DNA of 48,037 nt from a virus. Positions 1 to 48,037 of the stretch are shown here, one piece after another; the stretch's first letter is position 1; the number at the start of each line of letters is the position of its first letter. The stretch lies in IMG/VR virus record IMGVR_UViG_3300045594_000630; one strand, 5' to 3'. Made by a program: the position numbers and the translations under genes. The notes under the pieces were generated by a model that saw only the letters and a list, made by a program, of their open reading frames with translations, searched no databases and was not told where the DNA came from.

Positions 1-1
1 G

Positions 2-916
2 ATGCGATCACCCAGATCTGTCTCCATTCTCATAGAGTCTAGCGCTGGTCGACGGAATGAACGGGCCATCAATGCTGGCTTCGATGCGATGGATGGTAAC
101 GGAGCGGTGATCTGCGTGACCAGTCCGCGTGGAGGTACAGGCAAGACATCAATGGCTGTAAGCATAGGCGCGGTCATCGGAGCAGCGGGATTGCGGGTCT
201 GCGTGATCGATCTTGACCTCATGAATGCTCCCATCAGCACGATCCTTAACGTGATCAGTCCTGACATCCGTGATCTACTGGAGACAGGGCAACCATCGGA
301 TCCGGACACGATCATTAAGAACACGATCTATAGTAAGGAGCTGAAGAGCAGATTCCTTCTCGGACCGCGTAGATCCATGACCGATGACTATCTTCCTGTC
401 AGCACGCTTGGATCCATTGTCAGCACGATGCGGTCACTGTTCGATGTGATCATCATCAACACTCCATCTTACCACCGTACCCCGATCGTGACGGACGGGG
501 CATACCGCGTGGCCGACGAGATCGTTCTGGCCACTGATAAGGATAAGACGTCGATCATCAGCACGGTGAAATGGCTGATGACTGTTGATCCAGCCCTGAT
601 GATGAAGACAATGATCGTCATGAACAAGTGCGGACGACCTGGTGAGATCAGTGATGACGCTGTCCGCCGCGTGATTACGATGACATCTTCCAGCGTTGCG
701 GACAGTCATGCTGGAGACGATGCCGGAATAGATCTTATCGAGTCCGTACCATTCAATGACGCTGTACGGATCGCATCTGACGCCAGCAGCCTTGGCCGCA
801 TTCTTGAAGACACGGCGTTCCGGTCAGCGATAGCAACCGTGGTCTCAGATCTGCTTCCAGATCAATATCTTAATCGTATGCATACAGACAACACTAAGGG
901 GGATCATCATGAGTGA
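2..916 (+). CDS. ParA/MinD-family ATPase, probably CpaE/TadZ-like (may be 5'-truncated by the window edge)
   Basis: Deviant Walker A VTSPRGGTGKTS, VCVIDLD, FDVIIINTP and IVMNK motifs; Tad genes elsewhere in the window. Confidence 0.75.
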   Translation: MRSPRSVSILIESSAGRRNERAINAGFDAMDGNGAVICVTSPRGGTGKTSMAVSIGAVIGAAGLRVCVIDLDLMNAPISTILNVISPDIRDLLETGQPSDPDTIIKNTIYSKELKSRFLLGPRRSMTDDYLPVSTLGSIVSTMRSLFDVIIINTPSYHRTPIVTDGAYRVADEIVLATDKDKTSIISTVKWLMTVDPALMMKTMIVMNKCGRPGEISDDAVRRVITMTSSSVADSHAGDDAGIDLIESVPFNDAVRIASDASSLGRILEDTAFRSAIATVVSDLLPDQYLNRMHTDNTKGDHHE

Positions 917-1802
917 TGAAGATGAGAAGCAGGAGTTCCCACCTGTACCAGCGATCGACTGGCGGAAGGTAACCATCAAGCCATTCAGATCTTGCCAGCA
1001 CGTGAATGACCGGCAGGGTGAGATCGTAAGAGAAGCCCTAGTCCATGGGAAGCGGCACTTCGGGGCGGCGGCAGGGTCCCTCACCTGGATGAAGAGCCCC
1101 CAGATGAAGGGCAAGCTGCCGGAGGGATGGAGGTCTGAGGTCGTTGATGTGGCCATGGGCGCGGAGAAGAGAACGACCAGGAATCTCCTCGAATGGATGA
1201 AGAACAAGCCCGCCGCCGTTCTCATTGACTCTGTACACATACCCGGGGTCGGTAAGGAGGAGGTCAACGAGGAGACCGGGCTTATCGAGGGCGGTGACAC
1301 TGATCATATTCTTATCATTGGTTCCCATGTCTACGTGATCGACACGAAGAACTGGAAGAAGAAGGCCCAGTACACGGTAGGTGACGACGGATCTGTACTC
1401 AGGAACGGTAAGCCGTTCCCTGGCGGCAAGGTCCACATCAATGCGGCCACGAAGATGTGGTATGACTATCTTGACTCTGATGACGCTGAGGTCGTCGGAG
1501 CGATCTATATCGACAATGAAGACGAGCCAGATCCGAAGACGAAGGAATGGACGACCTCAGTCTTCAGGAATAAGAACTGGTGGCGGAACTACTGGTTCTT
1601 ACTAGAGGAGCGCCGGTGGAGGGATTGGATCGATGAGAAGTATGCGGAGCAAGCCGGGTACGACAAGACCACCGGTAAGGCGGACGATCCGGAGAGCGTA
1701 AGCTTCATTGACCCATCTCTGATAGCCCAGGTCGCCGTGACCTGCGTGAAGCCATATGACCGCAGGGATGGTCTCATCAACATGAAAGCGTTCGAGAGTT
1801 AA
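909..1802 (+). CDS. NERD-domain (PD-(D/E)xK) nuclease-related protein
   Basis: GDTDHILIIGSHVYVIDTKNWK matches the NERD signature; start overlaps the upstream gene. Confidence 0.7.
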   Translation: MSDEDEKQEFPPVPAIDWRKVTIKPFRSCQHVNDRQGEIVREALVHGKRHFGAAAGSLTWMKSPQMKGKLPEGWRSEVVDVAMGAEKRTTRNLLEWMKNKPAAVLIDSVHIPGVGKEEVNEETGLIEGGDTDHILIIGSHVYVIDTKNWKKKAQYTVGDDGSVLRNGKPFPGGKVHINAATKMWYDYLDSDDAEVVGAIYIDNEDEPDPKTKEWTTSVFRNKNWWRNYWFLLEERRWRDWIDEKYAEQAGYDKTTGKADDPESVSFIDPSLIAQVAVTCVKPYDRRDGLINMKAFES

Positions 1803-1865
1803 CGATCTTAACTTGATAGATCAGATGAGTATCATAACTGAATAGTATCTACGGGAGAGTGGATC

Positions 1866-2659: not shown

Positions 2660-2712
2660 TCTCATACCTGCAACGAGATCACCGAAGACTGTCCTATCTT
2701 CTGTCACAGACG

Positions 2713-2807
2713 CAATCTATGACGCCATAGACGTGAGAACCTGCACGGCATGCGTTTTTTACTGTCCATAAAGATCTCGCGTCTAAGGCACGTTAGAATG
2801 CATCTGA
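2713..2807. repeat. Dispersed ~90-bp inverted-arm element, copy A (core inverted relative to copies B and C)
   Basis: Left flank CAATCTATGACGCCATAGACG has 1 mismatch to copy C; right flank TCTCGCGTCTAAGGCACGTTAGAATGCATCTGA has 4 mismatches to copy B; the core matches the reverse complement of the B/C core. Confidence 0.85.
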
Positions 2808-2834
2808 TACCACGACTCAGATCTGCGCACTATT

Positions 2835-2851
2835 GATATCCTCAATCCATG
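2835..2851 (+). promoter_or_regulatory. GATATC-N8-ATG putative promoter of a leaderless gene
   Basis: GATATC at 2835-2840, 8 nt, ATG at 2849; no SD sequence; same spacing at 23344, 28206 and 31320. Confidence 0.6.
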
Positions 2852-4134: not shown

Positions 4135-4159
4135 CCTGATACATGATTGCTATCAGAAT

Positions 4160-4188
4160 TTGCATACGAACAATGATCTTGATATGAT
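4160..4188 (+). promoter_or_regulatory. Sigma70/SigA-type promoter
   Basis: TTGCAT-17 nt-TATGAT upstream of the ORF at 4233. Confidence 0.6.
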
Positions 4189-4232
4189 TAGATCAGATCT
4201 ATGATAATCAATCGTTGAAGGCTGTGAATCAC

Positions 4233-4847: not shown

Positions 4848-4881
4848 AAGCATGTGATGACGTACCCGAATGATGAATCGA

Positions 4882-5225: not shown

Positions 5226-5380
5226 ACGAACGGGTATTCCACGCTGAAGGGTGAATCTTTCGCGCAGATCTGTCACGGCCGAATCCATCTTGCATTCACC
5301 TCGTAATGATGTTAGCTCGTCTGATATCCATCATATGCTATTCCACAATTGTTCAGATCATGTAAAGATAAGGCGTAAAG

Positions 5381-6759: not shown

Positions 6760-7038
6760 ATGGCCATTTCTAATGAACATATTAAAGATGCACTTGCGAA
6801 ACATGGAATTTTATATTCTATATCTGATGACAAATCACAAATAATAGCTTCCAATTTGATTATTTTTATCAATAAGAATAACAACCCTCTTTATAACACT
6901 CTAAAAGAGTATGCTAATAATTTAGACAGTCTTGATAAGAGCAAGACATTGTTCATTAAAGATGATAATGATGCTACATCGGATGATCTTGATAGGTATG
7001 CTGACGTTGTAGTGAAAAAGCTGTATAACGTTAAATAA
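6760..7038 (+). CDS. Hypothetical protein, AT-rich
   Basis: GGAGG SD, 92-aa ORF, followed by a hairpin. Confidence 0.7.
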   Translation: MAISNEHIKDALAKHGILYSISDDKSQIIASNLIIFINKNNNPLYNTLKEYANNLDSLDKSKTLFIKDDNDATSDDLDRYADVVVKKLYNVK

Positions 7039-7221: not shown

Positions 7222-9120
7222 GTGACGGAAACTGATGAAGACAAGAGTAAAGACAAGCTGATATCAGATCTGCGACAACAGTTGAGAACAGCGCGGCAAG
7301 CTCAGAATAGTCTAGGTCTCTCCTATAAGCATATTCCTGAAGCCGGTGAAGACGCTGCACATCTTGCCGCCGGGGACATTCCTGTCCTCACCCGTGTTCC
7401 CGATCTGTCCACGGACAAGCATAATGACGAGACGGATCACATGATCGTCGAGGGCGACAATCTGATCGCATTGCACACACTGCTCCCACGGTATGCGGGC
7501 AAGGTGAACGTGATCTATATTGATCCTCCGTATAACACCGGGAATCAAGATTTCGTCTATAATGATAAGTATGTAGATCCAGATGATGGATTCCGGCACT
7601 CCAAGTGGCTGAGCTTCATGGAACCTCGTCTCAAGATCGCCCGCGAGATGCTTGCAGATGATGGCATTATCTTCGTGTCTATCGATGATCATGAACATGC
7701 GTATCTGAAGATCTTGATGGATAAGATCTTTGGATCTAGGAATTTCCTTGCTAATTTCATTTGGCATAAAACTGATCATGTATTTAAATCTAAGAAGAAT
7801 GTCTATAGCAAACATGAGTACATTCTGTGCTATGTAAAAGATATAACTTCTCGTAATGATGAAGTATTCCTATCAGGTAAAACTCAGACAACGTTCCAAC
7901 CAGCTCCTCTCTATAATGCTCTAATGGGTGAGCCACAGAGAATTGTGTTTCCTAAGGATTCCCTGATCGTCAAACTAAAAGACGGAATATACAACAAGGC
8001 GACTAACAACCATTATCAGCTTATGAAACCATTCATCGTAAAGAATCATCAAGCTGTAACAGATCTTGATATTAAATTCACTTCTAGATGGGGACAGAAA
8101 ACTGTTGACAAAAATGTGAAGAGGGGAGATAAGTTCATCATTCGTAAGGACACCTTCTCTCTGACCGTAATGTATTCTAGTGATAAGGATAGCTTCACTT
8201 CAAGCTTAGATTCTATTCTTCCAGGTACGGTAGGAACTACATCAAGAGGCACGAATTTATTGACGGGCATTATGGATGAGCATCAGTTCTCGTACCCCAA
8301 ACCAATGGAGCTTATTAAATATCTTATTAAAGCTACACGGAATAAGAACGGTATCGTGCTTGATTTCTTCGCCGGATCTGGAACGACTGGACACGCTGTA
8401 GCCATGCTGAACGCAGAGGATGGAGGCCATCGCAAGGCGATACTTGTGACGAACAACTTCGAGACCCGCAATGATGGCAGCAGGCGTGAGACCGGGATCG
8501 CCCGCGGAGTGACGGCACCCCGTATGCGAGCTGTACTCACCGGCCGCTGGGCCGACGGGAAGCCTCATGACCCGCTCCCAGGCAATCTTGTCTATTACCG
8601 TGTAGATTGGCTGCCGCGTCCGTCTGGCGGCAATCTGACGGAGACCGTCCCCATCAAGACGTGGATCGGACAGATCGCCGTCGACGAGGACACGCTCCGT
8701 GTGCTCCCGGTTGACGGTGAAGACACCGGCGGAACAGATCTGTCTGATCTTGTCCGTAAGGGCAAGGCGATCGTCCTCACGAATGAAGACAGAAGCAAGC
8801 ATGTTCTCGTGGTGCTGGATCCAGATCTGTCAGTCATTGATCCGGACTCACTGACGGCCGCAGGCAGCGTGTTCAGCAAGCTCAATGGTGCGGACACAGT
8901 GTACTCACCGTCTGATCTCAATGCCGACGTGTACTTGCGGACAGGATGCTTCCCTGACAATGTAGATGAGAAGCCGTTCCCTACAGCATTCGTCAGCAGG
9001 ATCAGGAGCAGGGTGAAGACACTTGAGAACAATGGAACGATCGTGCATGACGGTAAGACCAGCGCGACGTCTGAACCAATTGAAGACAGTCTTGAAGACA
9101 ACAAGGGGAATCAGCAATGA
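7222..9120 (+). CDS. mod: Type III restriction-modification methyltransferase (beta class)
   Basis: IVEGDNL, IYIDPPYNTG (motif IV), HSKWLSFM, YPKP, VLDFFAGSGTTGHAV (motif I); ATGA overlap with res. Confidence 0.92.
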   Translation: MTETDEDKSKDKLISDLRQQLRTARQAQNSLGLSYKHIPEAGEDAAHLAAGDIPVLTRVPDLSTDKHNDETDHMIVEGDNLIALHTLLPRYAGKVNVIYIDPPYNTGNQDFVYNDKYVDPDDGFRHSKWLSFMEPRLKIAREMLADDGIIFVSIDDHEHAYLKILMDKIFGSRNFLANFIWHKTDHVFKSKKNVYSKHEYILCYVKDITSRNDEVFLSGKTQTTFQPAPLYNALMGEPQRIVFPKDSLIVKLKDGIYNKATNNHYQLMKPFIVKNHQAVTDLDIKFTSRWGQKTVDKNVKRGDKFIIRKDTFSLTVMYSSDKDSFTSSLDSILPGTVGTTSRGTNLLTGIMDEHQFSYPKPMELIKYLIKATRNKNGIVLDFFAGSGTTGHAVAMLNAEDGGHRKAILVTNNFETRNDGSRRETGIARGVTAPRMRAVLTGRWADGKPHDPLPGNLVYYRVDWLPRPSGGNLTETVPIKTWIGQIAVDEDTLRVLPVDGEDTGGTDLSDLVRKGKAIVLTNEDRSKHVLVVLDPDLSVIDPDSLTAAGSVFSKLNGADTVYSPSDLNADVYLRTGCFPDNVDEKPFPTAFVSRIRSRVKTLENNGTIVHDGKTSATSEPIEDSLEDNKGNQQ

Positions 9121-11696
9121 GCATTACATTAAGATCGTTCCAGGACCGCGCTGTACGGAAGATCATCAGCGGAATCAATGAGATCGAGCAAGATGAACTG
9201 GCCAATTCGGGCCAGAATCTTGATAACACGGATTCATGCCGGATCGTGTTGAAGTCGCCAACCGGATCTGGCAAGACCGTGATGATCTCAAAGGTCATCG
9301 AAGACAAGCTTAAAGACAATTACGCGACGATCTTGTTCTCTCCCGGACAGGGGCAGCTTGAGAACCAGACGAGAGACAAGCTGAACTCATACTTCACGAC
9401 GAGCGGGCTCAAGGCCGAGATCTTGACTCCGGAATCCGTGTCCACTCCGCTCAGCCAGGGCGACGTGTACGTGACGAACTGGGAGAAGCTGTCCAGAACT
9501 GACAGGGAGACGGGTGAGCTTACCAATGTGATCACGCGAGATGATGAATGGGGTAGTCTTGAAAGCGCGATCACGGCTACCGTTGAATCGGGTACGCCAT
9601 TGGCTATCATTATTGATGAATCGCATTACGGTACGAGGAATCGTGACTCGAACATCGTTCATCTGTTGACGAAGATCCAGTCATGGGTGGCGACAGCATC
9701 GAGTAGACGACCTGTCATCATTGAGATGAGTGCAACCCCGATCACAAGAATTGGCCATAATCCAAGCAAGTTCATAGCTATCACGAACTCGGAGGTCAAG
9801 GAAGCCCAGCTGATGCGGAAAGGCATCATCAGAAATGACGCTGACAAGGGAGGGCTTGACATCAGGGTGGATGAAGATCCGAATGATGATCAGGTCATGG
9901 ATACAGAGCGTACACTGATGAGATCAGCATTGAAGCGGCTTGATGAGATCGACGCCGGGTATGCTCAGGCCGGAGAGAACCAGCATGGTCTTATCGGTGT
10001 GAACATTCCGAATGGTCGTGACGGCAATGCAGCCATGGAGCGTATCGAATCATGGATGGCCGATCATGGTATCTCGAAGGCTAACGGTCAGCTTGCAGAA
10101 GTGCTGTCAGACGAGAAGACCGTTGACATCAAGTCCATATCATCACCCGACTCCCCGGTTCGAGTTCTGATCTACAAGCAAGCCATATCAACCGGATGGG
10201 ATTGCCCTAGAGCGCAGATACTTATCGGCTTCCGTCACATCAAGAGCAGGGTCTTCTCCGTCCAGAACATGGGACGATTCTTAAGGACTACGAACGGGAA
10301 GTATTACTCTGATCCAGATCTTGACTTCATGAACTGGACGTATGTCTATGACAACAGCTCCATGAGGGACGTCGAGAGGGACCCTGATTCGATCATCGAG
10401 GAAGACAAGACGATCATACCAGACTTCGTTGACATCAACTTGAATTCCAGATGGTTCGCAGACAGGCTGAACAACTATCATCTCCCTAAGACCGTTCTGA
10501 AAAGAACCGGAACTAGAGGGTTCACGAAGGCCGATCTTGGAAGCGTCATACAACCGGTGTATCAGGCGTATAAGGAATCCACCCTCTTGAATGATCAATT
10601 GGCAGACATGAACGATCAGTTGCTGTCAGGCCGCTTGAAGACGGAAGATCTTGACGAGCTTAGCCAGAAAGACTCCATCTCGTTCACGATGCTCAGTACC
10701 ACGGCCGTGAAGACGGCAGAAGCCAACGTATCTGAGCGTCTGTTCAAGGAGATAGAGGGCGTCGTCAACGTCACGGTGCCCGCATTCCCTGATAAGGCCA
10801 ATCTGATCTGGAACATTATAGATCTGTTGGAGATCTATATCAAAGATGATAGCAATCTGAAATCTGCCGTAACGAAGTCTGACGCGGTGAAGCTCATGAT
10901 TGATCCGTCTAATCTTCAGACGATAAAGAACATGATCAGGACATCTCTGGAAGGATCATTGTTCTCCCAGAACGATGATGGCACTGCACCTGAGGCCGTT
11001 AAGAACAAGAATAACAAGAAGGAATTCCTCGCTAGCAATAAGTCGTGGTCGCTTGGAGTGTCCGCTAGAGTGCCTACAGCCGCGTTGACCGTGCCGGATG
11101 ATCGTGCGAGCAAGTATCTCTACATGAGCTCTGGTCTGAATGGAGCTAAACGACAAGCCTTCTATACGGAGTCCGGCAGGAGATCTAGCCCTGAGAACGA
11201 GTTCGAGAAAAGCATGCTCGAATTGAAGGACAGCACTGACGGCAGGCTTGAACTGTCCACGTTCTTCAAGATACCTCCGTATGCGAACCGGGAAGATTCG
11301 CTAAGCATGGTGATCTTCGTCACTAATCATGACGGATCAATGTCCAGCATGACCTTCTACCCCGACTATCTTCTCTTCATCCACGATCTTGAGAACAACA
11401 CCGTGTTCCCGTTGGTCGCTGAGATCAAGGACAAGGATGGCGGCAGGGAGACGCCGGAGACGATCAACGCTAAGGCGAAGGCGCTTGAACAGTACTCCGA
11501 ACATACCGGACTTCCATGCGGCTTGTTCCATGACGTCAAGGGCAGATTCATGCTTCATGGTGAAGACATTGAGTTCAATGATTACTGCATGTCTCACAGA
11601 TCTGACAAGATCACGCCATTCAAGAAGAATGCCGGGATACCTGACTGGATGAACTCGCTCGGCCTTGAAGATGCGGCAGATCAGACGGAAGACTGA
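9117..11696 (+). CDS. res: Type III restriction enzyme Res subunit (SF2 helicase plus PD-(D/E)xK nuclease)
   Basis: SPTGSGKT, IIDESH, MSATP, GWDCPRA, QNMGR and C-terminal FYPDYL...EIKD; coupled to mod. Confidence 0.88.
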   Translation: MSITLRSFQDRAVRKIISGINEIEQDELANSGQNLDNTDSCRIVLKSPTGSGKTVMISKVIEDKLKDNYATILFSPGQGQLENQTRDKLNSYFTTSGLKAEILTPESVSTPLSQGDVYVTNWEKLSRTDRETGELTNVITRDDEWGSLESAITATVESGTPLAIIIDESHYGTRNRDSNIVHLLTKIQSWVATASSRRPVIIEMSATPITRIGHNPSKFIAITNSEVKEAQLMRKGIIRNDADKGGLDIRVDEDPNDDQVMDTERTLMRSALKRLDEIDAGYAQAGENQHGLIGVNIPNGRDGNAAMERIESWMADHGISKANGQLAEVLSDEKTVDIKSISSPDSPVRVLIYKQAISTGWDCPRAQILIGFRHIKSRVFSVQNMGRFLRTTNGKYYSDPDLDFMNWTYVYDNSSMRDVERDPDSIIEEDKTIIPDFVDINLNSRWFADRLNNYHLPKTVLKRTGTRGFTKADLGSVIQPVYQAYKESTLLNDQLADMNDQLLSGRLKTEDLDELSQKDSISFTMLSTTAVKTAEANVSERLFKEIEGVVNVTVPAFPDKANLIWNIIDLLEIYIKDDSNLKSAVTKSDAVKLMIDPSNLQTIKNMIRTSLEGSLFSQNDDGTAPEAVKNKNNKKEFLASNKSWSLGVSARVPTAALTVPDDRASKYLYMSSGLNGAKRQAFYTESGRRSSPENEFEKSMLELKDSTDGRLELSTFFKIPPYANREDSLSMVIFVTNHDGSMSSMTFYPDYLLFIHDLENNTVFPLVAEIKDKDGGRETPETINAKAKALEQYSEHTGLPCGLFHDVKGRFMLHGEDIEFNDYCMSHRSDKITPFKKNAGIPDWMNSLGLEDAADQTED

Positions 11697-11709: not shown

Positions 11710-11752
11710 CGCTGTATTCAGATCAGATCTGCATCCAGATCTGAATACAGCG
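11710..11752. terminator. Long hairpin after res
   Basis: CGCTGTATTCAGATC and GATCTGAATACAGCG form a 15-bp perfect inverted repeat. Confidence 0.6.
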
Positions 11753-13118: not shown

Positions 13119-13160
13119 TCATCTGGATTCAGATCTGAGGGCACTGATCTGAAGATCGTT

Positions 13161-13269
13161 CTATCACGCCATAGACGCTCTGAATCATCCATGCAATAAA
13201 AAACGCATGCCGTACAGGTTCTCGCGTCTATGGTGCGTTAGAATGCGTCTGAACGGCATCTCATGGCAT
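13161..13269 (+). repeat. Dispersed ~90-bp element, copy B
   Basis: 13170-13255 is identical over 86 nt to 14934-15019; internal inverted arms CCATAGACGC and GCGTCTATGG. Confidence 0.92.
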
Positions 13270-13412
13270 TAGAACGTGACGATCTGCATTCTGCCGCATA
13301 TCTGAGTAAGATCGCCTCACCGAATCGCCAGATCTGCGATCATGTCCGCATTCAAGACACGCCGTCTGCAGATCTGTGATACTATTGCATTGTAACGGCA
13401 GGAGGGATTGAC

Positions 13413-13724: not shown

Positions 13725-14850
13725 CGAGATCCGTGACATCCCCGGAGAAGTCATCATAATCAACTCTGACCGGTTGCCTTCCATCCACGTTGTTGTCCCA
13801 GACCTCTGGCTTCTCATCAAACAGCCCGGACGAATACAAGCTCGTGAGATTCTCCGCGTTCTTAGATGAGAACCTACTGTCTTCAGATCTGTTATCATCA
13901 ATGATTCTCAATGGAAGCCATCGGCCGCCCGAACCAGATCCTCCCATCGTGTACCGATCCATTCCATCCTTGTAGCGGATCTGCGCCCTCTTCTTACTCG
14001 TATCCGGATCAATGTCCACGAAGACCGCCCTGACAGACGTGTAGCCAGCCGACCTGAGTTCACGGATCTTCCTCTCCGCTGATCTGGTTGACCCTAACGT
14101 TCCGTCAATGATGACATTCAGCTTCCGTTCCTCAGCCGTTCGCATAAGCTTCTTCATGATGTCACTTGCCTCTTCATGGACGAGTGATGAAGCCTCCATT
14201 GGTGTCAAGCCAAGTACCTTCGGGACCGCTCCCCTCTTCGCAAGCTCTTCCTTGATGTCATCATTGTTGATGGTGAGATACTTGTCGGGATGATAACCTC
14301 CATGCTTCAAGACATATGACTTGCCAGCACCACCGAGACCACCTGAGAACAAGGCCCTGCCCTCGGCCGGAACACCTCGCTTCACCGCATCGTTGATGAA
14401 TGATTCAATGATCTCACGATGCATTGCCTCTCTATCAGGATCATATGATACGGTTCCGTTTTCCACGGTCGAATATCTGTTCTGGCTGTCTTGCTTGTTC
14501 TCATTCAGCTTAGCAATGACCTTCTCGACGTAATCTTTGCGATTCTCCAGATCCATTCCATTGATGGACGTCTTGTTCTTGACGGCAGTCCTGAGAACAT
14601 CTCTCTGATGATGGCCGCGTGCTAGCAGGGAGTTCTCATCATGGGCGGAGTCATCACCATTGATCATCTTCTTGAGTGATGGTGAGTTCAAGGCCTCCGC
14701 GATCTTCTCCGCCGCTTCTGTAGCCTTGCCGAGAGAATCATAGTGACCGGTCTTCCTGAACGGGCATGATGCTTCACTGGCGGCATGGCACTTGCCGGGC
14801 TTGCCATCTCCAGCCACATGCCATAGTCCGTTCCACTTTCTCTCGGCCAT
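13717..14850 (-). CDS. Zeta toxin family P-loop kinase with N-terminal Cys/His module
   Basis: GGLGGAGKS, INNDDIKEEL, VHEEAS, NVIIDGTL, GGRWLP and VWDNN motifs. Confidence 0.85.
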   Translation of the reverse strand: MAERKWNGLWHVAGDGKPGKCHAASEASCPFRKTGHYDSLGKATEAAEKIAEALNSPSLKKMINGDDSAHDENSLLARGHHQRDVLRTAVKNKTSINGMDLENRKDYVEKVIAKLNENKQDSQNRYSTVENGTVSYDPDREAMHREIIESFINDAVKRGVPAEGRALFSGGLGGAGKSYVLKHGGYHPDKYLTINNDDIKEELAKRGAVPKVLGLTPMEASSLVHEEASDIMKKLMRTAEERKLNVIIDGTLGSTRSAERKIRELRSAGYTSVRAVFVDIDPDTSKKRAQIRYKDGMDRYTMGGSGSGGRWLPLRIIDDNRSEDSRFSSKNAENLTSLYSSGLFDEKPEVWDNNVDGRQPVRVDYDDFSGDVTDLVS

Positions 14851-15132: not shown

Positions 15133-18100
15133 ATGTCATCAGATGGATCCGGGTTCGTCAATCTTCACATGCACTCGCATTACTCGATACTTGACGGGTA
15201 TGCGACACCGGAGGAGTACATCAGAAGAGCCGCGCGGCTAGGCCAGACCGCCCTCGCCCTGACTGATCACGGCAACATGTACGGTATCCATGAATTCATC
15301 AAGACGGCGAGGGATCTCTCCAAGAGCAAGGATAAGAAGGGTCATCCGCAGGAACCGATCTTCGTGAAGCCGATAGCAGGCATGGAAGCATATGTAGCCC
15401 CGTTGAACCCGGATGGAGCCAGATGCAAGCAGCCTGTCTTCTATGGAGGCGAGGATCAACGCTCTGATGACGTGTCCGCCGGGGGAGCGTATCTGCATCT
15501 TACCCTGCTGGCCATCAATGATGTTGGCTTCCATAATCTTATCAGACTGTCCACGGAGTCATTCCGCAGGGAGAACTTCTACAAGAAGCAGCGGATCGAC
15601 CAGGACATGCTTGCTCGATGGAATGAGGGCGTCGTTGCGTTCACCGGCTGCCCGTCCGGTGAGGTGCAGACCCGTCTCCGCCTTGGTCAGGTCGATGAGG
15701 CCTATGACTACGCTCGCCGGATGAAAGAGCTGTTCCCCGGAAGGTATTACGTTGAGGTCATGGAGCATCATATGAAGCGAGATCTTGAACGCGATCTGCT
15801 CCCGATGCTGGTCAAGATGGCTTCAGATCTTGACCTTCCCCTCGTCGCCACGAACGACTCTCACTACTCCGCTCCGTCAGATGCTATCCATCAGGAGGAG
15901 ATGCTCTGCATCAATCAGAAGGGCATGGTCAAGGATGAAGATCTTCAGGGGAACAAGATCTCCAGACCCGTCAACATGACTGACGCGAAGCGCGACGAGG
16001 GTGGACCCCGATTCGCATTCGACGGTGATGATTACTATCTGAAGTCGGAAGAGGAGATGCTGAAGACCTTCCCTGACGACAAGTACCCCGGAGCTGTCTC
16101 CAATACGGTGAAGATAGCGAACATGGCCGCTGACTGGTGGTCGATGGCCGAAGATCTTGGCAAGAAGCTCCCGCATGCTCACGGAGGGATGGTCGATGTC
16201 CGTGAGCCTTCAGGCAAGGGGTTCGCGTACGGCTCTCACGGATCTCATCCGTCAGGATGGTCGCAAAGCGTTGACCCTGACGTCCAGAAGATGATCGATG
16301 ACGGGGACATAGCCCTCGGACCGTACGATCTTAGCCTGAACAAGGGCATCAGACCGAAGATAACGATACCCGATGGATGGACTGAACGCAGATGGTTCCA
16401 GAAGAAGATCAATGACGGATTCGAGAATCGTAGGGTGGCAGCAGGTGATCCACCCGCGGTTCTGAACGAGGCGAAGAAGAGGATCTCAACTGAATTCCCG
16501 GTGTTCGCAGACAATGACTTCATGCAGTACATGCTGGTCGTCCAGGACTACATCAACGCAGCCCGGTCGAAGGGCATCGCCGTCGGATACGGCAGAGGAA
16601 GCTGCGGAGGATCAGAGATAGCGTATGATCTTGACATCTCGAGAACTGACCCGATCCGTCACAACCTGCTGTTCGAGAGGTTCTTGAACCCTGAACGTGT
16701 CTCCCCACCCGATGTGGACACTGACTTCCAGGCCAGCCGTAAGAACGAGGTTCTTGTCTATGCGAAGCAGAAGTACGGTGCGGACAAGGTTGCGAACATC
16801 ATCACGTTCGGAACGTTCGGATGCAAGACTGCGTTCAGAGACATGGCCAAGATCTATACCATGGCGCCATTCGAGGTGAACAAGATCTCGAAGCTGATCC
16901 CTGACGGATCAACCGAGGAAGGCCAGCCGACGATGGCGGCCATGTATGATCCGTCGTCGAAATGGTACGCGCAAGCAGCTGATTTCAGGAGGGCCGTGGA
17001 GGCCGGTGGCGACCGATGGTCTAAGATCGGCAAGTCAGCAGCGGCCGTCGAAGGCAGGGTGCGGTCAACGGGAACGCATGCTTGCGGCGTGATCATGAGT
17101 GACGAGCAGATCGTGAACCGCGTCCCGCTGTGCTGGGAGAGCGATGAGAAGAAGGCCGCCAGCAACGTCTGGGTGGACTGTAAGGTCCAATGGGGCTATG
17201 AGGCCTGCGAATCCCTCGGACTTATCAAGATGGACTTCCTGAGTCTCTCCGATCTTGACGTGGTGAAGAACACGCTGAGCAACATCGAGGGCATCAATGA
17301 GAATGTGGATGAGCTTGCCAGGTCAGGATCCGTGTCAGCATCTGTCGTCAAGCAGTTGAGGGCGAAGGGTCTGGAGCCGCCAGATCTTGATGCTCTCGTC
17401 CATGGTCCGATGGATGACAAGGCCACATATGAGATGCTTGGACGGGGTGATTCCGTAGGATGCTTCCAGCTTGGGAGCGACGGAATCCGCGACCTGCTCC
17501 GCATGATGAAGCCGACCGTGTTCGACGACATCGCGGCCGTGAACGCTTTGTACCGACCAGGTCCAATGAAGGCGAATGCTCACATCGCGTACGCAGACCG
17601 GAAGAACGGCAGGGAGCAGGTCTATGTGATCGATCCGATTCTTGACAAGGCGTTCAAGGGGACTCCGGTTGAGGACATCTTGAAGCCGACATGGGGATGC
17701 ATGGTGTACCAGGAGCAGGTCATGCAGATCTCGCAGAGACTATGCGGCTACAGCCGTGGTGGAGCTGACTCCCTCCGTAAGGCGATCGGCCATAAGATAC
17801 CTGCGGAGATGGAACGGAATCACGCCAAGTTCGTTGACGGCGCCATGGCGAACAACGCTGATGGCAAGTATGCGTACACGCGGGAAGACGTGGAGGCTCT
17901 CTGGCAGAAGATCGATGCGTTCTCGAGCTATGGCTTCAATAAGTGCGCCGATGGCTCAACAAATGTCTATGATGAATATTGGCGAACAATAAACATTGTA
18001 GACCTTCTTAAGCGTTGGAATAATGGTGATCGTGACATCAAAATCATGTCCATGTGGGAGGATGGAACAATACGACCTCATCAAGTTAAGAATGTCGTGT

Positions 18101-20390: not shown

Positions 20391-22148
20391 GTGTCTAGAA
20401 GACGATATGACGATTTCTCAGCGTGGAACACTCCATCAAAGTCTCATAAGCATCGGGTCACGCCGCCGAAGTATTCGCTAGAAGGATGGAGTGATCCAGC
20501 GGACGATCATAAGTCAAGCGTCCCCATTGATCATTCGTCTAGTGGCCGCAGATCTGAACCCGATCCGTCTACAGGACATGCCGGCAGCCCTGAACGCACC
20601 GTGAAGACGCATCGTATCCACCCTGTATCCAGTCCGGCAAGCACTACTGATGACAGGAAGACGGACAGGACCGATGCTGACAAGATCGCCAGCACGGACA
20701 AGCAGACAGGATCAGACATCGGATTCGACATCCCATCTGAATCCAGATCTGCTCCGCCGGTGCATGACAATCCGGCTACTCCGATACCCGGGATCGATGA
20801 TGTTCTTGACATGAGTGATGACAGATCTGCGGTCAAGCAACTGCACGCAGATGACCGTCAGAACAATCCCTCAGGCCATGGAATAGACATGAAGAAGCAT
20901 GGCCTTAGCTACATGATGCAGCGCCATAAGAGGCATGCAGTACGTGATCCCAGACAGCTTGCCGAAGATCTTGGCGCGTTCAGGCCTGACGGCAATGATG
21001 AGGGCAAGAGCAAGCCAGATCTGGAGCCCCGTCAGAGCAAGCCTGCCGTCCGCTCTTCCCAGTCTCATATCAGTCAAGAACCGTCTCCTGAACCAGTCGA
21101 AGACCATGAGGCTGACATCCCCGCGTACGATGTGGATTCAGACTATGACGTCACACCTACAAGATCATACCCGACGGACAATGGCATCGGTTCTAATGCA
21201 GATCTAGTTGACCCGGATCTGAATGATGATCCATTAGATTCATCGAAGATCCCATCTGACGACGCTCCCATAGATTGGGGTGTAGACGATGACGACGTTG
21301 ATGACAGCAACCAGTTCGTCTTTGATGACCCGTCGAGCAAGGATAAGACTGAACCGGAATCAGATGATGACACGGAGTCTGCAGAGGATGCGGAACCGCA
21401 AGATGAAGATGATGGATCAGAAGCTGATGAACAGCAAGATGAATCTGACAGCAAGCCTGCCGGCGGATGGAAGCAGAAGCTGAGAAGACTGGCGGATCAG
21501 GCTAAGGCGGAGCTTCACGGTGAAGACGTCCCTGATGAAGACAATGCGGACAAGAGTGAAGACACTGAGGACGAGGGTGAAGACACTGAGGACAGATCTG
21601 ACGGTAAGGATGCGCCATCTGATAATGACCGGAAGTCGTCAAAGAACCCGGATCAGCATGATCATGGTGGATCAGGCCATCATTTCAATCTGCTCTCACC
21701 GATCACCGGGCTGTTCAGAGCGATCTTCGGTCTGCTGCATCTTACAGGGAGACTAGCGCGGGCCGTATTCAGCCTGGGCTCACTGTTCATCATCTTGTGG
21801 ATCGTGCTGGGTCTGGTCGCCGCGTTCACGGGCAACGGAACGTCATATGAAAGCAATGATGAGGGCACTGTCACCGTATCTGGTAAGAGCTTCAACGGAA
21901 CGACGGTAAGCATGACGATGAAGAACGATTCAGATCTGATTGCTCATGTCAGCGGTACAGCAACGGTGAAAGCATGGGCGCCAGATCTGAATCCAATAAG
22001 CTGGGTGAACCCTAAGATCGTTGCGTCTTGCACCGTGGATTCAGTCGACATCAATCCTGGGGAAACAAGATCAGTCGAATCAAAGCCTTGTGACGGTGCT
22101 GGCAATGGTGTATGGAAGCGCGTTGCTGTCAAGCTGATCTATGAATAA
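20391..22148 (+). CDS. Acidic low-complexity membrane protein with C-terminal extracellular domain
   Basis: GGAGG SD and GTG; long D/E/P/S-rich region, TM segment LFIILWIVLGLVAAF, beta-rich C-terminus with a Cys pair. Confidence 0.8.
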   Translation: MSRRRYDDFSAWNTPSKSHKHRVTPPKYSLEGWSDPADDHKSSVPIDHSSSGRRSEPDPSTGHAGSPERTVKTHRIHPVSSPASTTDDRKTDRTDADKIASTDKQTGSDIGFDIPSESRSAPPVHDNPATPIPGIDDVLDMSDDRSAVKQLHADDRQNNPSGHGIDMKKHGLSYMMQRHKRHAVRDPRQLAEDLGAFRPDGNDEGKSKPDLEPRQSKPAVRSSQSHISQEPSPEPVEDHEADIPAYDVDSDYDVTPTRSYPTDNGIGSNADLVDPDLNDDPLDSSKIPSDDAPIDWGVDDDDVDDSNQFVFDDPSSKDKTEPESDDDTESAEDAEPQDEDDGSEADEQQDESDSKPAGGWKQKLRRLADQAKAELHGEDVPDEDNADKSEDTEDEGEDTEDRSDGKDAPSDNDRKSSKNPDQHDHGGSGHHFNLLSPITGLFRAIFGLLHLTGRLARAVFSLGSLFIILWIVLGLVAAFTGNGTSYESNDEGTVTVSGKSFNGTTVSMTMKNDSDLIAHVSGTATVKAWAPDLNPISWVNPKIVASCTVDSVDINPGETRSVESKPCDGAGNGVWKRVAVKLIYE

Positions 22149-37207: not shown

Positions 37208-37391
37208 CTGAGATCAAGCTATGTTCAGAAGCGTAGGCCCTACTGCCATTCTAGACGCATCAAGAACGCTACGATGCTGGAAAGCGCAATCTAGTATGAC
37301 GTTACTTCCTGAACGCTATTGCGTCTTCAGATTGCAGATCTGTCAACGGTACCATATAGAATAGATCATAGGGAAATCAAGGAGATCATTC

Positions 37392-45613: not shown

Positions 45614-45933
45614 TCAGTTGTATGAGTAGGCCTTATTCCGCGTGCATTGGAATGCCTGAGCACCGGTGGCAGGGCAATCCAGATCTGGGCCACTGACAAG
45701 ACACGTCTGGTTAGCGCTGTAACTATTCCAATTCGGAATATTGTCATGATTGTCGTCTTCAAGCACTTGCCCGGTATCGCTCAGGCAGTTCGACACGTTG
45801 ACAGCTCTACCACCTGCAGCATTCGTGACCATTCCAAAGACGGTCAGACCGAAGATGACGAAGGCCACGATGCCGATGATGATCGCACGGTCTCCGCTCC
45901 GGACTCACACCTTATGACTTCAACTATCCCCAT
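45614..45933 (-). pseudogene. Flp-like pilin paralogue 3 with a 1-nt frameshift
   Basis: MGIVEVIRCESG|AETV, then a 2-nt remnant (CG) where the paralogues have GAG, then IIIGIVAFVIFGLTVFGMVTNAAGG...SNC...YSYN. Confidence 0.8.
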
Positions 45934-46013
45934 GATGGACCCCCGATTGCAGACAGACTTGATGGCAGTAAGATAAAGACCCGCCTACCGTCATGTCAGG
46001 CAACGAGTCCTGC

Positions 46014-47435
46014 TCAGTTCGTGAGAATAGAACCGTCATCATCTGCATTCGACACGGTCTGCAGATCTGCATCCATCCTGACCTCATGCCCGGATCCATC
46101 CGTCGGCACAAGCGTCCACACCATCGTATTCACGTCGAGCGGTACCAGACCCATAGGACAGGTGATTCCAGCTTGCTCCGAATGGTGCTTGTCGTCCGGC
46201 ACCGGCTTACCGTTCTTGTCAAGAACCTGATGCAGCTTCCCATCTTCACTCTTCTCCATCTTAGCTCCCCAGCCCTGACCGGAGAGATCCCACGTGACCT
46301 CACCATTCACAGATCTACCAAGACGGATAAGATTCCACGGAGTCTCATCAAGATCATCAGGGAGCGAGGCCATTGTCGGGAGTGGCGGCATGGTCTTCAG
46401 CCAGACCTTCTGCTTGTCGAAGTCCCATCCATCCTTCTGCACGATACGACCGTTACGGTTCACCTCTCGCTGGGCGATCCATTCGACAGTTCCACCACCG
46501 ATCGTCTGGTTGATATGATCCATGAACGCAGGGATCGACGACTGCATGAAGTTCGCATCGAACGAGATGACCATTGATGACGGAACGTCACGGAACCTTG
46601 CTATCCTCGGCTTGACCTCACGGCCACGCTTATCCCGCGGATGGATGATCTTGTCAGCCTCCTCCGACTGCCCGATCTCAGATGCGTACACGATCGCGTC
46701 CGCCACTGCTTGCGCCTCACCAGCAGCCTCCCATCCCGTGATCTGCACCATGTCCTTCACCGTCGCGCCATTCTTCAAGGCAGATCCGAAGAACTTGCTA
46801 TAGATCGTTCCGATCTTCTCCCATGTCGCATCTTCCGACTGGATGCAAGCCTTTCCCTGCTTGATCATGACACTCAAGACGACGGACGATATGATGAACG
46901 GAATGATCAGCAAGGGCCATAGTCTTACCAGTATGATGAGGGATGAGACGACGAATGACGCGAGGAACCCGATCTTGTATGTCCTCACCCATGTCGGCAC
47001 GTTCTTACCAGGGTCAACAGGCAGCGGCTTCTTCTCCTTCAGATTAGGATTGCAGTACTTGTCAGTGAACTTGTCAAGACTGTACTCCTTGATGACCTTG
47101 CCGTCATCGTCCTTAGCCGGGACCATTGCAGCCTGCGACGGATCATCCACCACGCTGCCGGACTTATCGACCATGTTCCCCTGCTTGTCTTCCTTGGGGA
47201 CCATCACCTTCTTCTGCAGACCGAGAAGACGCTTGTCATGCCATGCTGCTCGCAGTCTTGACCGCATCGTGGACAGATGGACGACCCGCTTCATCAGCTC
47301 GTCATAGTCGTTCCGGTTCGCATTCCTGGCCTTGTTCTTCGCCAGCAGATCCTGACACCATGCGAACAGCATGGATATGATGATCGGGCTGAACGTGGTA
47401 AGCGCTCCTAGCACGATGACAAGAATGAAGCTCAT
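46014..47435 (-). CDS. Membrane protein, possibly the N-terminal part of an FtsK/TcpA-like coupling protein
   Basis: Three TM segments; ends IRLGRSVNGEVTWDL...PMGLV as found just before FtsK Walker A, but no P-loop follows. The ORF is solid and the product is tentative. Confidence 0.5.
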   Translation of the reverse strand: MSFILVIVLGALTTFSPIIISMLFAWCQDLLAKNKARNANRNDYDELMKRVVHLSTMRSRLRAAWHDKRLLGLQKKVMVPKEDKQGNMVDKSGSVVDDPSQAAMVPAKDDDGKVIKEYSLDKFTDKYCNPNLKEKKPLPVDPGKNVPTWVRTYKIGFLASFVVSSLIILVRLWPLLIIPFIISSVVLSVMIKQGKACIQSEDATWEKIGTIYSKFFGSALKNGATVKDMVQITGWEAAGEAQAVADAIVYASEIGQSEEADKIIHPRDKRGREVKPRIARFRDVPSSMVISFDANFMQSSIPAFMDHINQTIGGGTVEWIAQREVNRNGRIVQKDGWDFDKQKVWLKTMPPLPTMASLPDDLDETPWNLIRLGRSVNGEVTWDLSGQGWGAKMEKSEDGKLHQVLDKNGKPVPDDKHHSEQAGITCPMGLVPLDVNTMVWTLVPTDGSGHEVRMDADLQTVSNADDDGSILTN

Positions 47436-48037
47436 GAATCCTCCCCGAATACCGTAGATCTCAGCTCCGCGGTCCAGCGACCAATCGGGACGGACCCTTT
47501 GATCTTAAGATCAATGCTCGAACTGTCTACCAGCGGATCTTCCCCTGAACAGTAAGCATACCTGCCGTCATACGATGCATTCACGTTGTCTCCCCTCAGG
47601 AATATCTTACCGGACGGTATTCTGATCTCAACCCTGTCGTCAGGATTCAGGCCACATCCGGCTGCATACGATGATTCCCTCCCGTCAAGAGCGGCCACGC
47701 GGTCTTGACAGCCATGGATTGAAGATATCATTCCGCCAGGCTCGACGCAGACCACGTCACCCGGGACGGCAAGCACTCTCTTCACAAGCTCGCGATCATT
47801 GGTGATGCTCCCCAGGGTCCATGCCGGAGGCCTCTCCACGATGACCACGTCCCCCGGCTGCACGTCTTGCGTCCGCGTCCCGTACAGCACGTCACCGTCA
47901 TAGTAAGTGTCTCGCATCGAATTCCCGGACACCGTCCAGTATGATCTTGACGTGGATCCCCAGATCACGGCTGCTGACACGATGATCGATGCGAGCACGA
48001 TGACAGCACTGATGATCGCACCCGCCCTAGATCTCAT
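47432..48037 (-). CDS. Signal peptidase I (S26)
   Basis: TM then VSGNSM, LVKRVLAVPGD, GDNVNASYDGR. Confidence 0.88.
   Translation of the reverse strand: MRSRAGAIISAVIVLASIIVSAAVIWGSTSRSYWTVSGNSMRDTYYDGDVLYGTRTQDVQPGDVVIVERPPAWTLGSITNDRELVKRVLAVPGDVVCVEPGGMISSIHGCQDRVAALDGRESSYAAGCGLNPDDRVEIRIPSGKIFLRGDNVNASYDGRYAYCSGEDPLVDSSSIDLKIKGSVPIGRWTAELRSTVFGEDS

What the first reader, a model, noticed from the sequence alone, without database searches (positions are those of the whole stretch)
1..48037. Highly iterated palindrome CAGATCTG and GATC enrichment as a backbone signature
Seen: I count 18 GATC in bases 1-600 (about 2-3 expected by chance) but only 3 in the AT-rich mod insert at 7741-8340. 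The 8-mer palindrome CAGATCTG, naively expected less than once in 48 kb, occurs for example at 13, 846, 2818, 2974, 3420, 5265, 7265, 8735, 8822, 11597, 11724, 11736, 12028, 13130, 13329, 13369 and seven times in 20549-21989, in genes and between genes. Known: cyanobacterial HIP1 (GCGATCGC) is a GATC-centred iterated palindrome linked to methyltransferases. Inference: a HIP-like motif on an actinobacterial mobile element, possibly a methylation or repair mark, a protein-binding site or a recombination signal.
Basis: partly seen in the sequence, partly recalled or inferred. Interest (0 to 1): 0.72.

Follow-up and report, generated by a model that had tools for sequence, protein, structure and literature searches.

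The report
Iterated CAGATCTG palindrome, giant phage-like element
A giant phage-like DNA element has written the palindrome CAGATCTG, on top of a general excess of GATC and a newly noticed spaced palindrome TGNNNNCA, into its genes and spacers far beyond chance; it resembles the still poorly understood "highly iterated palindromes" of cyanobacteria, and what reads or creates it is unknown.

Summary
CAGATCTG occurs 39 times in 48 kb against 2.9 expected. GATC occurs 787 times and is the commonest 4-mer. Both survive synonymous-codon shuffling (z about 18).

The octamer lies in two reading frames and is three times denser between genes. About 40% of peptide sites that could carry it do carry it, against 2-3% expected.

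The signal is nested:
- GATC excess is shared, more weakly, with the two closest relatives (420 kb and 491 kb elements).
- GATC is avoided in a more distant relative.
- The octamer is about 16 times rarer in the closest relative.
- No iterated octamer was found in 802 sampled genomes of two phyla.

New here: motif sites have dyad-symmetric flanks, YG-N4-motif-N4-CR. These flanks belong to a second genome-wide spaced palindrome, TGNNNNCA. It has 595 copies, an observed/expected ratio (O/E) of 2.4, appears in all frames and between genes, and is graded across relatives.

GATC-poor spots are three AT-rich inserts: the Mod target-recognition segment, the PolIII intein and a small ORF.

No writer or reader was found. 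The only methyltransferase in the window is a type III Mod, an unlikely cause. The host is unknown, and "actinobacterial" is not shown.

The scan noted this motif before on the same DNA (e1-5356637). I file it as a HIP-like variant with an unresolved mechanism.

The parts
1..48037 (.). Window-wide signature: 39 CAGATCTG, 109 AGATCT, 787 GATC and 595 TGNNNNCA. Octamers start at 13, 846, 2818, 2974, 3420, 5265, 7265, 8735, 8822, 11597, 11724, 11736, 12028, 13130, 13329, 13369, 13884, 19589, 19934, 20549, 20744, 20822, 21016, 21593, 21931, 21982, 26487, 26922, 30049, 33640, 34956, 36496, 36567, 37335, 37472, 39326, 45368, 45680 and 46062.
20391..22148 (+). Fast-evolving 585-aa ORF of unknown function (30% identical to its counterpart in relative G001) holding 7 octamers. 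Seven of its 10 compatible peptide sites are written as the motif.
11712..11750 (+). Perfect 15-bp inverted repeat just after the res stop codon. It contains two octamers 12 bp apart (11724, 11736) and looks like a terminator hairpin.
   Evidence: sequence read directly
13119..13412 (.). Intergenic spacer with 3 octamers (13130, 13329, 13369) and 8 GATC in 294 bp.
2818..2825 (.). Intergenic octamer 24 bp upstream of ORF 2849-3715.
5265..5272 (.). Intergenic octamer upstream of the endonuclease gene 5381-6649.
37335..37342 (.). Intergenic octamer 50 bp upstream of the 5'-3' exonuclease gene.
13884..13891 (-). The only octamer whose position is conserved in relative G001 (N-R-S in the zeta-toxin gene).
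7222..9120 (+). Type III Mod methyltransferase (PF01555), the only DNA methyltransferase in the window. It has no counterpart in G001.
7650..8250 (+). AT-rich (36-38% GC), GATC-poor segment inside mod, at the place of the target-recognition domain. It looks like a recent import that has not yet acquired the signature.
9117..11696 (+). Type III Res helicase-nuclease subunit. It is GATC-rich (16.3 per kb) like the backbone.
17944..18979 (+). Intein inside the PolIII alpha gene, absent from the orthologues of G001, L028 and L150. It holds one of the lowest GATC densities in the window (18301-19050).
6760..7038 (+). Small ORF at 29% GC in the lowest-GATC stretch of the window.
22504..23286 (-). 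NucS/EndoMS-like mismatch endonuclease, conserved in all relatives seen. It is a candidate part of an element-own repair route, but it is not specific to the motif-rich lineage.

Best explanation
CAGATCTG is the most specific layer of a DNA-level, dyad-symmetric sequence code. A giant phage-like element has written this code over its whole genome by point substitution. The layers, measured against synonymous-codon expectation, are GATC (1.6-fold), AGATCT (3.5-fold) and CAGATCTG (11-fold). Symmetric flanks, YG four bases outside each end, extend the site to about 20 bp and tie it to a second genome-wide palindrome, TGNNNNCA. I think the most likely cause is sustained selection for many recognition sites of a symmetric (dimeric) DNA-recognising protein that acts on the whole element. 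That protein would be a GATC-family modification enzyme or its reader, as proposed for HIP1 in cyanobacteria. Such sites would mark or organise the element's own DNA for replication, recombination or protection. Shown here: the enrichment, its independence of codon use and reading frame, its origin by substitution, its restriction to this lineage, and the symmetric flanks. Inferred: that a protein reads it, that methylation is involved, and what the benefit is.
For: The octamer gives 31 observed against 2.8 expected after synonymous shuffling. 17 of 46 [SPTA]-D-L sites and 13 of 27 x-R-S-[GAVDE] sites are written as the motif, against 1.5 and 0.4 expected. Density between genes is 2.3 per kb against 0.70 per kb in genes. 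At orthologous places relatives carry synonymous or different codons, and only 1 site is shared with G001, so the motif arose by substitution, with amino-acid changes in loosely constrained stretches. Preference at the outer position is graded, C > A or T > G (11-fold, 5-fold, 1.2-fold), as expected for binding energy. Flanks carry TG at -6,-5 or CA at +5,+6 in 27 of 76 half-sites against a 7% background (p = 1e-12), and in 11 of 42 half-sites at the 21 sites of G001. In the extra 9.4 kb, G at -5 or C at +5 occurs in 9 of 14 half-sites (read directly). TGNNNNCA has O/E 2.38. It is enriched in all three frames (1.5- to 2.5-fold over same-phase spacings) and between genes (2.05), and it falls with GATC across relatives. 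Many other 6-bp palindromes are avoided, so the DNA is exposed to site-specific enzymes and the GATC family is the exception. Precedent: HIP1 is recognised by two methyltransferases and raises transformation when methylated (PMC13756078; bioRxiv 10.1101/2024.09.10.611283). GATC is reported as over-represented in haloarchaea that carry the cognate methylase (PMC7230728).
Against: No candidate reader or writer was found. The window's only methyltransferase is a type III Mod, a class with asymmetric targets, and its recognition segment looks recently imported. The closest relative has a 2.5-fold GATC excess yet no hit to PF02086, PF01555 or PF00145. Octamer sites are clustered (coefficient of variation of the gaps, CV, 1.27) rather than evenly spaced. 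They are not positionally conserved, and they are rarer in conserved genes (0.44 against 1.08 per kb). All of this fits a neutral directional bias as well as selection. Only 57 kb of an element of at least 262 kb could be read.
Confidence: 0.4

Rival explanations
1. The motif is a by-product of biased mutation or repair. The element replicates and repairs its own DNA (PolIII alpha, NucS-like endonuclease, RecA, 5'-3' exonuclease). A context-dependent correction bias, analogous to very-short-patch repair raising CCWGG-like words in E. coli, would drive sequences toward GATC, AGATCT and CAGATCTG with no function for the sites themselves.
For: Every sub-word and near-cognate that keeps GATC is enriched in a graded way. 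Compatible synonymous sites are highly saturated. Spacing is not regular and positions are not conserved. The motif is rarer in constrained genes and absent from recent AT-rich imports. AGATTT/AAATCT, the deamination neighbour of AGATCT, is the most depleted neighbour at 4 observed against 14.5 expected.
Against: NucS, PolIII and RecA are shared with relatives that lack the octamer. No Vsr-like or C5-methylase domain was seen in the window or in G001. The AGATTT depletion is confounded by a general avoidance of A/T runs. A repair bias does not readily explain symmetric flanks 5-6 bp outside the octamer.
Confidence: 0.27
2. The signature is inherited from the host. The element mirrors a host chromosome that is itself rich in GATC, TGNNNNCA and CAGATCTG, because both are shaped by host methyltransferases, repair or uptake machinery.
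For: GATC ranges from avoided (O/E 0.69) to 4.25-fold enriched among related elements, as expected if different hosts impose different pressures. G001 has the GATC excess without an evident methyltransferase of its own.
Against: No genome among 401 sampled from the phylum of a Pseudonocardia genome and 401 from the phylum of a Ruminococcus genome has more than 2 close octamer pairs. A genome at this element's density should have about 80. A 491-kb relative from the same sample has 0 octamers in 22 kb. The element carries its own replication and repair genes. The host is unknown, so the test is weak.
Confidence: 0.15
3. The motif is tied to the type III restriction-modification system in the window. 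CAGATCTG holds two overlapping, inversely oriented CAGAT half-sites, so a Mod enzyme with such a target would methylate both strands there. The system is absent from the motif-poor relative G001.
For: Mod and Res (7222-11696) have no counterpart in G001. Eight octamers lie in the 2.3 kb just downstream of res. CAG/CTG triplets in inverted arrangement are specifically enriched at spacings N2 and N4.
Against: Restriction targets are normally avoided, not enriched. The recognition segment of Mod is compositionally foreign and so probably younger than a genome-wide signature. The presence/absence correlation rests on a single comparison.
Confidence: 0.06
4. The excess is an artefact of codon use, amino-acid composition or repeated DNA.
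For: Codon and amino-acid usage alone already lift GATC to about 10 per kb in shuffled genes. D-L and R-S dipeptides are 1.3-fold over-represented.
Against: The excess survives synonymous and codon-order shuffles. It is strongest between genes. Flanks of the 39 sites are all different, so they are not copies of a repeat.
Confidence: 0.02

Closest known systems
HIP1 (GCGATCGC) and alternate highly iterated palindromes of cyanobacteria (Elhai 2015, PMC4390886; Xu, Lawrence & Durand 2018, PMC5861425; Rodriguez-Cruz et al. 2026, PMC13756078)
   Same: An 8-bp palindrome with a GATC core. It is enriched an order of magnitude or more over codon-aware expectation, lies in genes (several frames) and between genes, spreads by substitution, and shows nested enrichment of its inner words.
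   Different: It is on a giant phage-like element, not a cellular chromosome. It is confined to one lineage: 16 times rarer in the closest relative and 0 in 22 kb of the next. No cognate orphan methyltransferases were found. Sites are clustered rather than quasi-periodic, and they are not positionally conserved at the distance I could test. It also has symmetric flanks and a companion spaced palindrome, TGNNNNCA.
GATC over-representation in haloarchaeal genomes that carry the cognate methylase (as stated in PMC7230728)
   Same: A genome-wide excess of GATC rather than the usual avoidance. Related viruses show the opposite trend, as relative L150 does here.
   Different: That is a property of cellular genomes, with a named methylase. 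Here it is a mobile element, and the closest complete relative shows no hit to three methylase families.
DNA uptake sequences (DUS of Neisseria, USS of Haemophilus); my own knowledge
   Same: About one copy per kb, inside genes, with one inverted pair forming a terminator-like hairpin (11712-11750).
   Different: Uptake sequences are not palindromes and are read in one orientation by a competence protein. No competence context is known here.
Very-short-patch repair raising CCWGG-related words in E. coli (Dcm/Vsr); my own knowledge
   Same: Graded enrichment of a methylase-type palindrome and of its partial matches.
   Different: No Vsr or C5-methylase domain was seen, and the enrichment here is far stronger and extends to 8-20 bp.
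Other iterated palindromes noted by this scan in phages (AGTACT/CAGTACTG in jumbo phages, e1-123044; ACGGCCGT, e1-3291012)
   Same: A phage-borne palindrome written through genes while other palindromes are purged, with no known reader.
   Different: The word is different, it has a GATC core, it is lineage-specific rather than clade-wide, and it comes with TGNNNNCA. Those notes were not checked by me.

Membership tests
HIP1-type highly iterated palindrome | 8-bp palindrome hyper-abundant relative to a codon-aware expectation | tested here: met
   31 observed against 2.8 expected in genes after synonymous shuffling, z = 18. 39 against 2.9 overall.
HIP1-type highly iterated palindrome | Present in coding DNA in more than one frame and in non-coding DNA | tested here: met
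   Frame counts are 17, 13 and 1, with 8 intergenic sites. Intergenic density is 3.3-fold higher.
HIP1-type highly iterated palindrome | Propagates by nucleotide substitution, not by copying a longer repeat | tested here: met
   All 39 flanks differ. Orthologous sites in G001 and L028 differ by synonymous or missense changes.
HIP1-type highly iterated palindrome | Cognate orphan methyltransferases for the inner words (GATC, CGATCG in HIP1) in the same genome | tested here: inconclusive
   Only a type III Mod lies in the window, and none in the next 9.4 kb. G001 has no PF02086, PF01555 or PF00145 hit. The rest of the element could not be read.
HIP1-type highly iterated palindrome | Sites conserved between related genomes more than control words (Xu et al. 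2018) | tested here: not met
   1 of about 22 alignable octamer sites is shared with G001. GATC sites are conserved at 28% against a 25% median for all 4-mers. Synonymous sites are saturated at 66% identity, so the test is weak.
HIP1-type highly iterated palindrome | Quasi-periodic spacing along the genome | tested here: not met
   Octamer gaps have CV 1.27, which is clustered. GATC gaps have CV 0.91, only slightly regular.
HIP1-type highly iterated palindrome | Signature of cellular chromosomes across a whole phylum | tested here: not met
   It is confined to one lineage of a mobile element. It was not found iterated in 802 sampled genomes of two phyla.
Restriction-modification target of the resident type III system | Short asymmetric target methylated on one strand by Mod | not testable with these tools
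   Mod's specificity is unknown. Its recognition segment is compositionally foreign.
Polar chromosome motifs (Chi, KOPS) | Strand-oriented word with skew relative to replication | tested here: not met
   The word is its own reverse complement, so it cannot carry orientation.
Vsr-type biased repair product | Vsr endonuclease plus C5 methylase; depletion of the T:G deamination neighbours | tested here: inconclusive
   No such domains were found. AGATTT/AAATCT gives 4 against 14.5, but A/T runs are depleted in general.

The most novel reading that the evidence does not exclude
The element encodes or exploits a dimeric DNA-binding protein that coats or marks its whole genome in a 12-bp register, TG-N4-CA-GATC-TG-N4-CA. 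On this reading GATC, TGNNNNCA and CAGATCTG are three views of one genome-wide self-recognition code of giant phages, and it evolves fast enough to differ between sister lineages.
Probability: 0.12. Interest if true: 0.85.

Novelty: new variant of a known kind. Interest (0 to 1): 0.58.

Why it matters
Highly iterated palindromes have been studied almost only in cyanobacterial chromosomes, and their function is only now being approached, as a DNA uptake or recombination signal that depends on methylation. A GATC-centred case on a giant phage-like element could be more tractable. It is strong in one lineage, weak in a sister and reversed in a cousin, which gives a natural comparison for finding the gene that writes or reads such motifs. 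The companion signal TGNNNNCA and the symmetric 20-bp footprint are not described in the papers I could search. They suggest that the octamer is only the visible tip of a broader DNA-level code.

Tried and rejected
- **Codon or composition artefact:** rejected by two kinds of shuffle.
- **Copies of a repeat or insertion footprints:** rejected. All flanks differ, and only 1 of 9 well-aligned sites coincides with an indel.
- **General excess of inverted repeats, such as quasi-palindrome correction:** rejected. Mean O/E of inverted dinucleotide pairs is about 1 at all spacings, and only TG..CA at N4 stands out.
- **TGNNNNCA as the decay product of a methylated CGNNNNCG:** rejected. CG-N4-CG is not depleted, at 1.22.
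- **Helical or other periodicity of GATC:** none beyond the 3-bp coding period.
- **Shared promoter context of intergenic sites:** none convincing.
- **Strain polymorphism to polarise gains and losses:** Logan contigs are identical to the window, apart from a collapsed paralogue end.
- **Host identification by CRISPR repeat:** no exact match, and the relaxed pattern gave only single chance hits.
- **Other searches that found nothing:**
  - Megablast against phage and plasmid collections found no match.
  - A metagenome scan with the SNF2 alignment found nothing.
  - No whole genome is held.
  - The genome search could not reach the JGI record.
- **Literature search for TGNNNNCA:** only unrelated barcode uses.


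Full report
**1. Observation**

The window holds 39 copies, against 2.9 (maximum 7) in dinucleotide-preserving shuffles. GATC occurs 787 times against 546 in shuffles and is the commonest tetramer. The local counts are exact: 18 GATC in 1-600 and 3 in 7741-8340. The segment around 7650-8250 is 36-38% GC between flanks of 51-63%.

**2. Not a coding artefact**

I called 42 ORFs, covering 93% of the window, and shuffled synonymous codons within each gene.

| Word | Observed | Expected | z |
|---|---|---|---|
| CAGATCTG | 31 | 2.8 | 17.9 |
| AGATCT | 97 | 26 | 17.0 |
| GATC | 728 | 456 | 18.6 |

Shuffling codon order gave the same picture. Under this null, GATC is the top tetramer and AGATCT the top hexamer of the whole window.

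The octamer is read in several ways:
- xCA-GAT-CTG: 17 times
- xxC-AGA-TCT-G: 13 times
- CAG-ATC-TG: once
- between genes: 8 times

Intergenic DNA is 7% of the window but holds 20% of the sites, 2.3 against 0.70 per kb.

Among peptide sites that could carry the word:
- 17 of 46 [SPTA]-D-L sites do, against 1.5 expected from codon usage.
- 13 of 27 x-R-S-[GAVDE] sites do, against 0.4 expected.

Another 9.4 kb of the same contig, outside the window, repeats all the numbers: GATC 18.6 per kb and 7 octamers.

**3. What the DNA is**

The window is 100% identical to JGI metagenome 3300046047, contig Ga0455796_000023 (262 kb). It also occurs in three Logan runs. Another assembly holds a 349.7-kb contig with the same SNF2 protein.

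Genes in the window:

| Group | Genes |
|---|---|
| Partition and replication | ParA; PolIII alpha carrying an intein; DnaG |
| Repair and recombination | NucS-like endonuclease; SNF2 helicase; 5'-3' exonuclease; RecA |
| Nucleases and defence | NERD protein; PD-(D/E)xK endonuclease; type III Mod and Res; zeta toxin |
| Conjugation- or secretion-like | T2SSF; TcpE; VirB4-like AAA_10 ATPase |
| Other | TelA; S26 peptidase |

Earlier notes of this scan describe the same element as carrying 51 tRNAs, RNase P and tmRNA. I did not check that.

RecA's nearest protein clusters are viral. I call it a giant phage-like element. Its host is unknown, and nothing I found shows it to be actinobacterial.

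**4. Relatives**

The closest is IMG/VR UViG_3300044557_000292 (G001, 419.7 kb). It is syntenic with the whole window, with 66.5% nucleotide identity in 22.5 kb of orthologous codons. Next is a 491-kb contig from the same sample (L028, SNF2 73% identical), then L151 (65%), L150 (59%) and L152 (48%).

| Element | GATC per kb | GATC O/E on base composition |
|---|---|---|
| Window | 16.4 | 4.25 |
| G001 | 9.9 | 2.54 |
| L028 | 9.5 | 2.49 |
| L151 | 6.6 | 1.86 |
| L152 | 5.5 | 1.41 |
| L150 | 2.6 | 0.69 (avoided) |

The octamer counts are:
- 39 in 48 kb in the window
- 21 in 420 kb in G001
- 0 in 22 kb in L028

So the GATC excess belongs to a small sub-clade, and the octamer is an addition of this lineage.

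Where a dipeptide is conserved between the window and G001, codon choice is bent toward GATC in both:
- D followed by a C-starting codon is GAT-C in 74% (window) and 66% (G001) of cases, although GAT:GAC is 50:50 overall.
- X-Ile is xxG-ATC in 55% and 30% of cases.

**5. Origin of the sites**

At the places orthologous to the window's octamers, relatives carry one of two things:
- Synonymous alternatives, for example TCT-GAC-CTC or CTG-AGA-TCG.
- Different residues, mostly in poorly conserved stretches.

Only the site in the zeta-toxin gene is shared. Flanks of the 39 sites are all different. The motif therefore arose by point substitution. GATC positions are not conserved more than other tetramers, 28% against a 25% median, but synonymous sites are saturated at this distance.

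**6. Distribution within the window**

GATC density does not depend on how conserved a gene is (rho -0.01). RecA, SNF2, NucS and DnaG have 17-23 per kb.

The octamer is rarer in genes at least 60% identical to G001, 0.44 against 1.08 per kb (rho -0.33, p = 0.08), and it is clustered (CV 1.27).

The lowest GATC densities fall in three places:
- the AT-rich segment of mod;
- the AT-rich ORF 6760-7038;
- the intein of PolIII alpha, which the relatives' orthologues lack.

Other lineage-specific genes (res, the endonuclease, ORF 38379-39965) carry it fully.

**7. A wider footprint and a second palindrome (new here)**

Aligning the sites shows G at -5 and C at +5 in about 60% of them. TG at -6,-5 or CA at +5,+6 occurs in 27 of 76 half-sites against a 7% background (p = 1e-12). 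Other AGATCT or GATC sites show 5-6%. The 21 sites of G001 show it too, in 11 of 42 half-sites (p = 1e-4). In the extra 9.4 kb, G at -5 or C at +5 occurs in 9 of 14 half-sites.

The flank signal is part of a genome-wide spaced palindrome, TGNNNNCA.

Within the window:
- It has 595 copies, 12.4 per kb.
- In genes it gives 555 observed against 227 after synonymous shuffling, z = 24, the strongest of all spaced dinucleotide pairs.
- O/E on dinucleotide frequencies is 2.38 in the window and 2.05 between genes.
- It is enriched 1.5-, 2.5- and 2.2-fold over same-phase spacings in the three codon frames.
- The central four bases have no consensus.
- It is not a general inverted-repeat effect.

Outside the window:
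- O/E is 2.29 in the extra 9.4 kb.
- O/E is 1.84 in G001, 1.65 in L151, 1.41 in L028, and 1.14 in L150 and L152.
- O/E is 0.82 in a pool of 0.6 Mb of bacterial DNA.

CTG-N4-CAG gives 43 against 16 (z = 8), specific to that spacing. Motif-like sequence recurs at +12 and -12.

The full pattern is TG-N4-CA-GATC-TG-N4-CA. The octamer remains about twice as frequent as GATC excess and CA-N4-TG coupling together predict. This is my arithmetic: 39 observed against about 20.

**8. Neighbours and avoided words**

One-letter variants that keep GATC are enriched 1.2- to 5-fold, and the outer position prefers C > A or T > G. Variants that break GATC are at or below expectation. AGATTT/AAATCT is lowest at 4 against 14.5, but A/T runs are depleted throughout. 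Several other hexamer palindromes are nearly absent: ACGCGT, ACATGT, GTGCAC, GGGCCC, GTTAAC and CCTAGG occur 1-4 times.

**9. Search for a writer or reader**

The only DNA methyltransferase in the window is the type III Mod. It has no counterpart in G001, but its recognition segment is compositionally foreign. None lies in the next 9.4 kb. G001 gives no hit to PF02086, PF01555 or PF00145. The rest of the element could not be read.

**10. Host test**

The CRISPR repeat shared by the window's mini-array and G001's arrays has no exact match in GTDB species genomes. I searched 401 genomes sampled from the phylum of a Pseudonocardia genome and 401 from the phylum of a Ruminococcus genome. I looked for two octamers within 30 bp of each other. 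None has more than 2 such pairs. A 4-Mb genome at this element's density should have about 80. This is a weak negative, because the host may not be sampled.

**11. Reading**

The facts fit a HIP-like motif (PMC4390886, PMC5861425). Its function in cyanobacteria is now proposed to be methylation-dependent DNA uptake or recombination (PMC13756078; bioRxiv 10.1101/2024.09.10.611283).

| Reading | Confidence |
|---|---|
| Selection for recognition by a symmetric protein, probably linked to GATC modification | 0.40 |
| By-product of biased repair | 0.27 |
| Host-imposed signature | 0.15 |
| Link to the type III restriction-modification system | 0.06 |
| Artefact | 0.02 |

I favour the first because of the 20-bp dyad footprint, the graded outer preference and the intergenic excess.

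The scan has already reported this octamer on the same DNA (e1-5356637). My results agree with it. They add the nesting in a sub-clade-wide GATC excess, the reversal in L150, the flanks and TGNNNNCA.

Noticed in passing
window 1-48037; G001 whole genome: The spaced palindrome TGNNNNCA is the strongest spaced-dinucleotide signal in the window. It has 595 copies and O/E 2.38, appears in all codon frames and between genes, and has no consensus in the central four bases. It is graded across relatives (G001 1.84, L151 1.65, L028 1.41, L150 and L152 1.14) and is below 1 in pooled bacterial DNA. I found no description of it in the searchable literature.
   Followed up: yes
window 1-48037: Several 6-bp palindromes are nearly absent: ACGCGT has 1 copy against a Markov expectation of about 13, ACATGT has 2 (both strands 4 against 17.9), and GTGCAC, GGGCCC, GTTAAC, CCTAGG and GTATAC have 1 each. 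ACGT is the most depleted 4-mer palindrome. This suggests exposure to several type II restriction systems, for example ACRYGT.
   Followed up: partly
window 7650-8250: The target-recognition part of the type III mod gene is 36-38% GC between flanks of 51-63% and has few GATC. It looks like a recently swapped specificity domain.
   Followed up: partly
window about 17944-18979: The PolIII alpha gene carries an intein (PF14890) that the orthologues in G001, L028 and L150 lack. The intein is AT-richer and GATC-poor.
   Followed up: partly
window 4759-4850; G001 positions 1-6000 and 414000-419707 approx.: The window's two-repeat mini-array uses the same repeat (one mismatch) as about 93 repeats at both ends of G001. 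The 'direct terminal repeats' by which IMG/VR rates G001 complete may therefore be CRISPR repeats, so its completeness is doubtful.
   Followed up: partly
window 1-48037 (coding): There is strong codon-context bias apart from GATC. Off-frame TGA words (TGAA, TTGA, GTGA, TGAC, CTGA) are 1.4- to 1.7-fold enriched. A/T runs (AAAA, TTTC, GAAA, GGAAA) are 2- to 4-fold depleted relative to synonymous shuffles.
   Followed up: no
L150:1-22151: A 536-kb relative (SNF2 59% identical) avoids GATC (O/E 0.69, Markov ratio 0.47, rank 169 of 256), the opposite of the window.
   Followed up: partly
L028:1-21986: The 491-kb relative from the same sample has the non-palindromic word TTCTGAGCAT 9 times in 22 kb. 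This may be a different iterated motif or a promoter element.
   Followed up: no
window 28220-32542 and syntenic parts of G001, L028, L150: A conserved block of T2SSF, TcpE and a VirB4-like AAA_10 ATPase sits next to the replication genes in all relatives seen. These are secretion- and Gram-positive-conjugation-type genes. It is unusual for a phage and relevant to whether these elements are phages, plasmids or both. G001 gave no Terminase_6C hit.
   Followed up: partly
window 22227-22352 and 27891-28016: Two 127-bp stretches 85% identical to each other, inside small ORFs 22160-22456 (-) and 27753-28121 (+). G001 has three copies of the related peptide. This is a small dispersed paralogue family of unknown function.
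   Followed up: no
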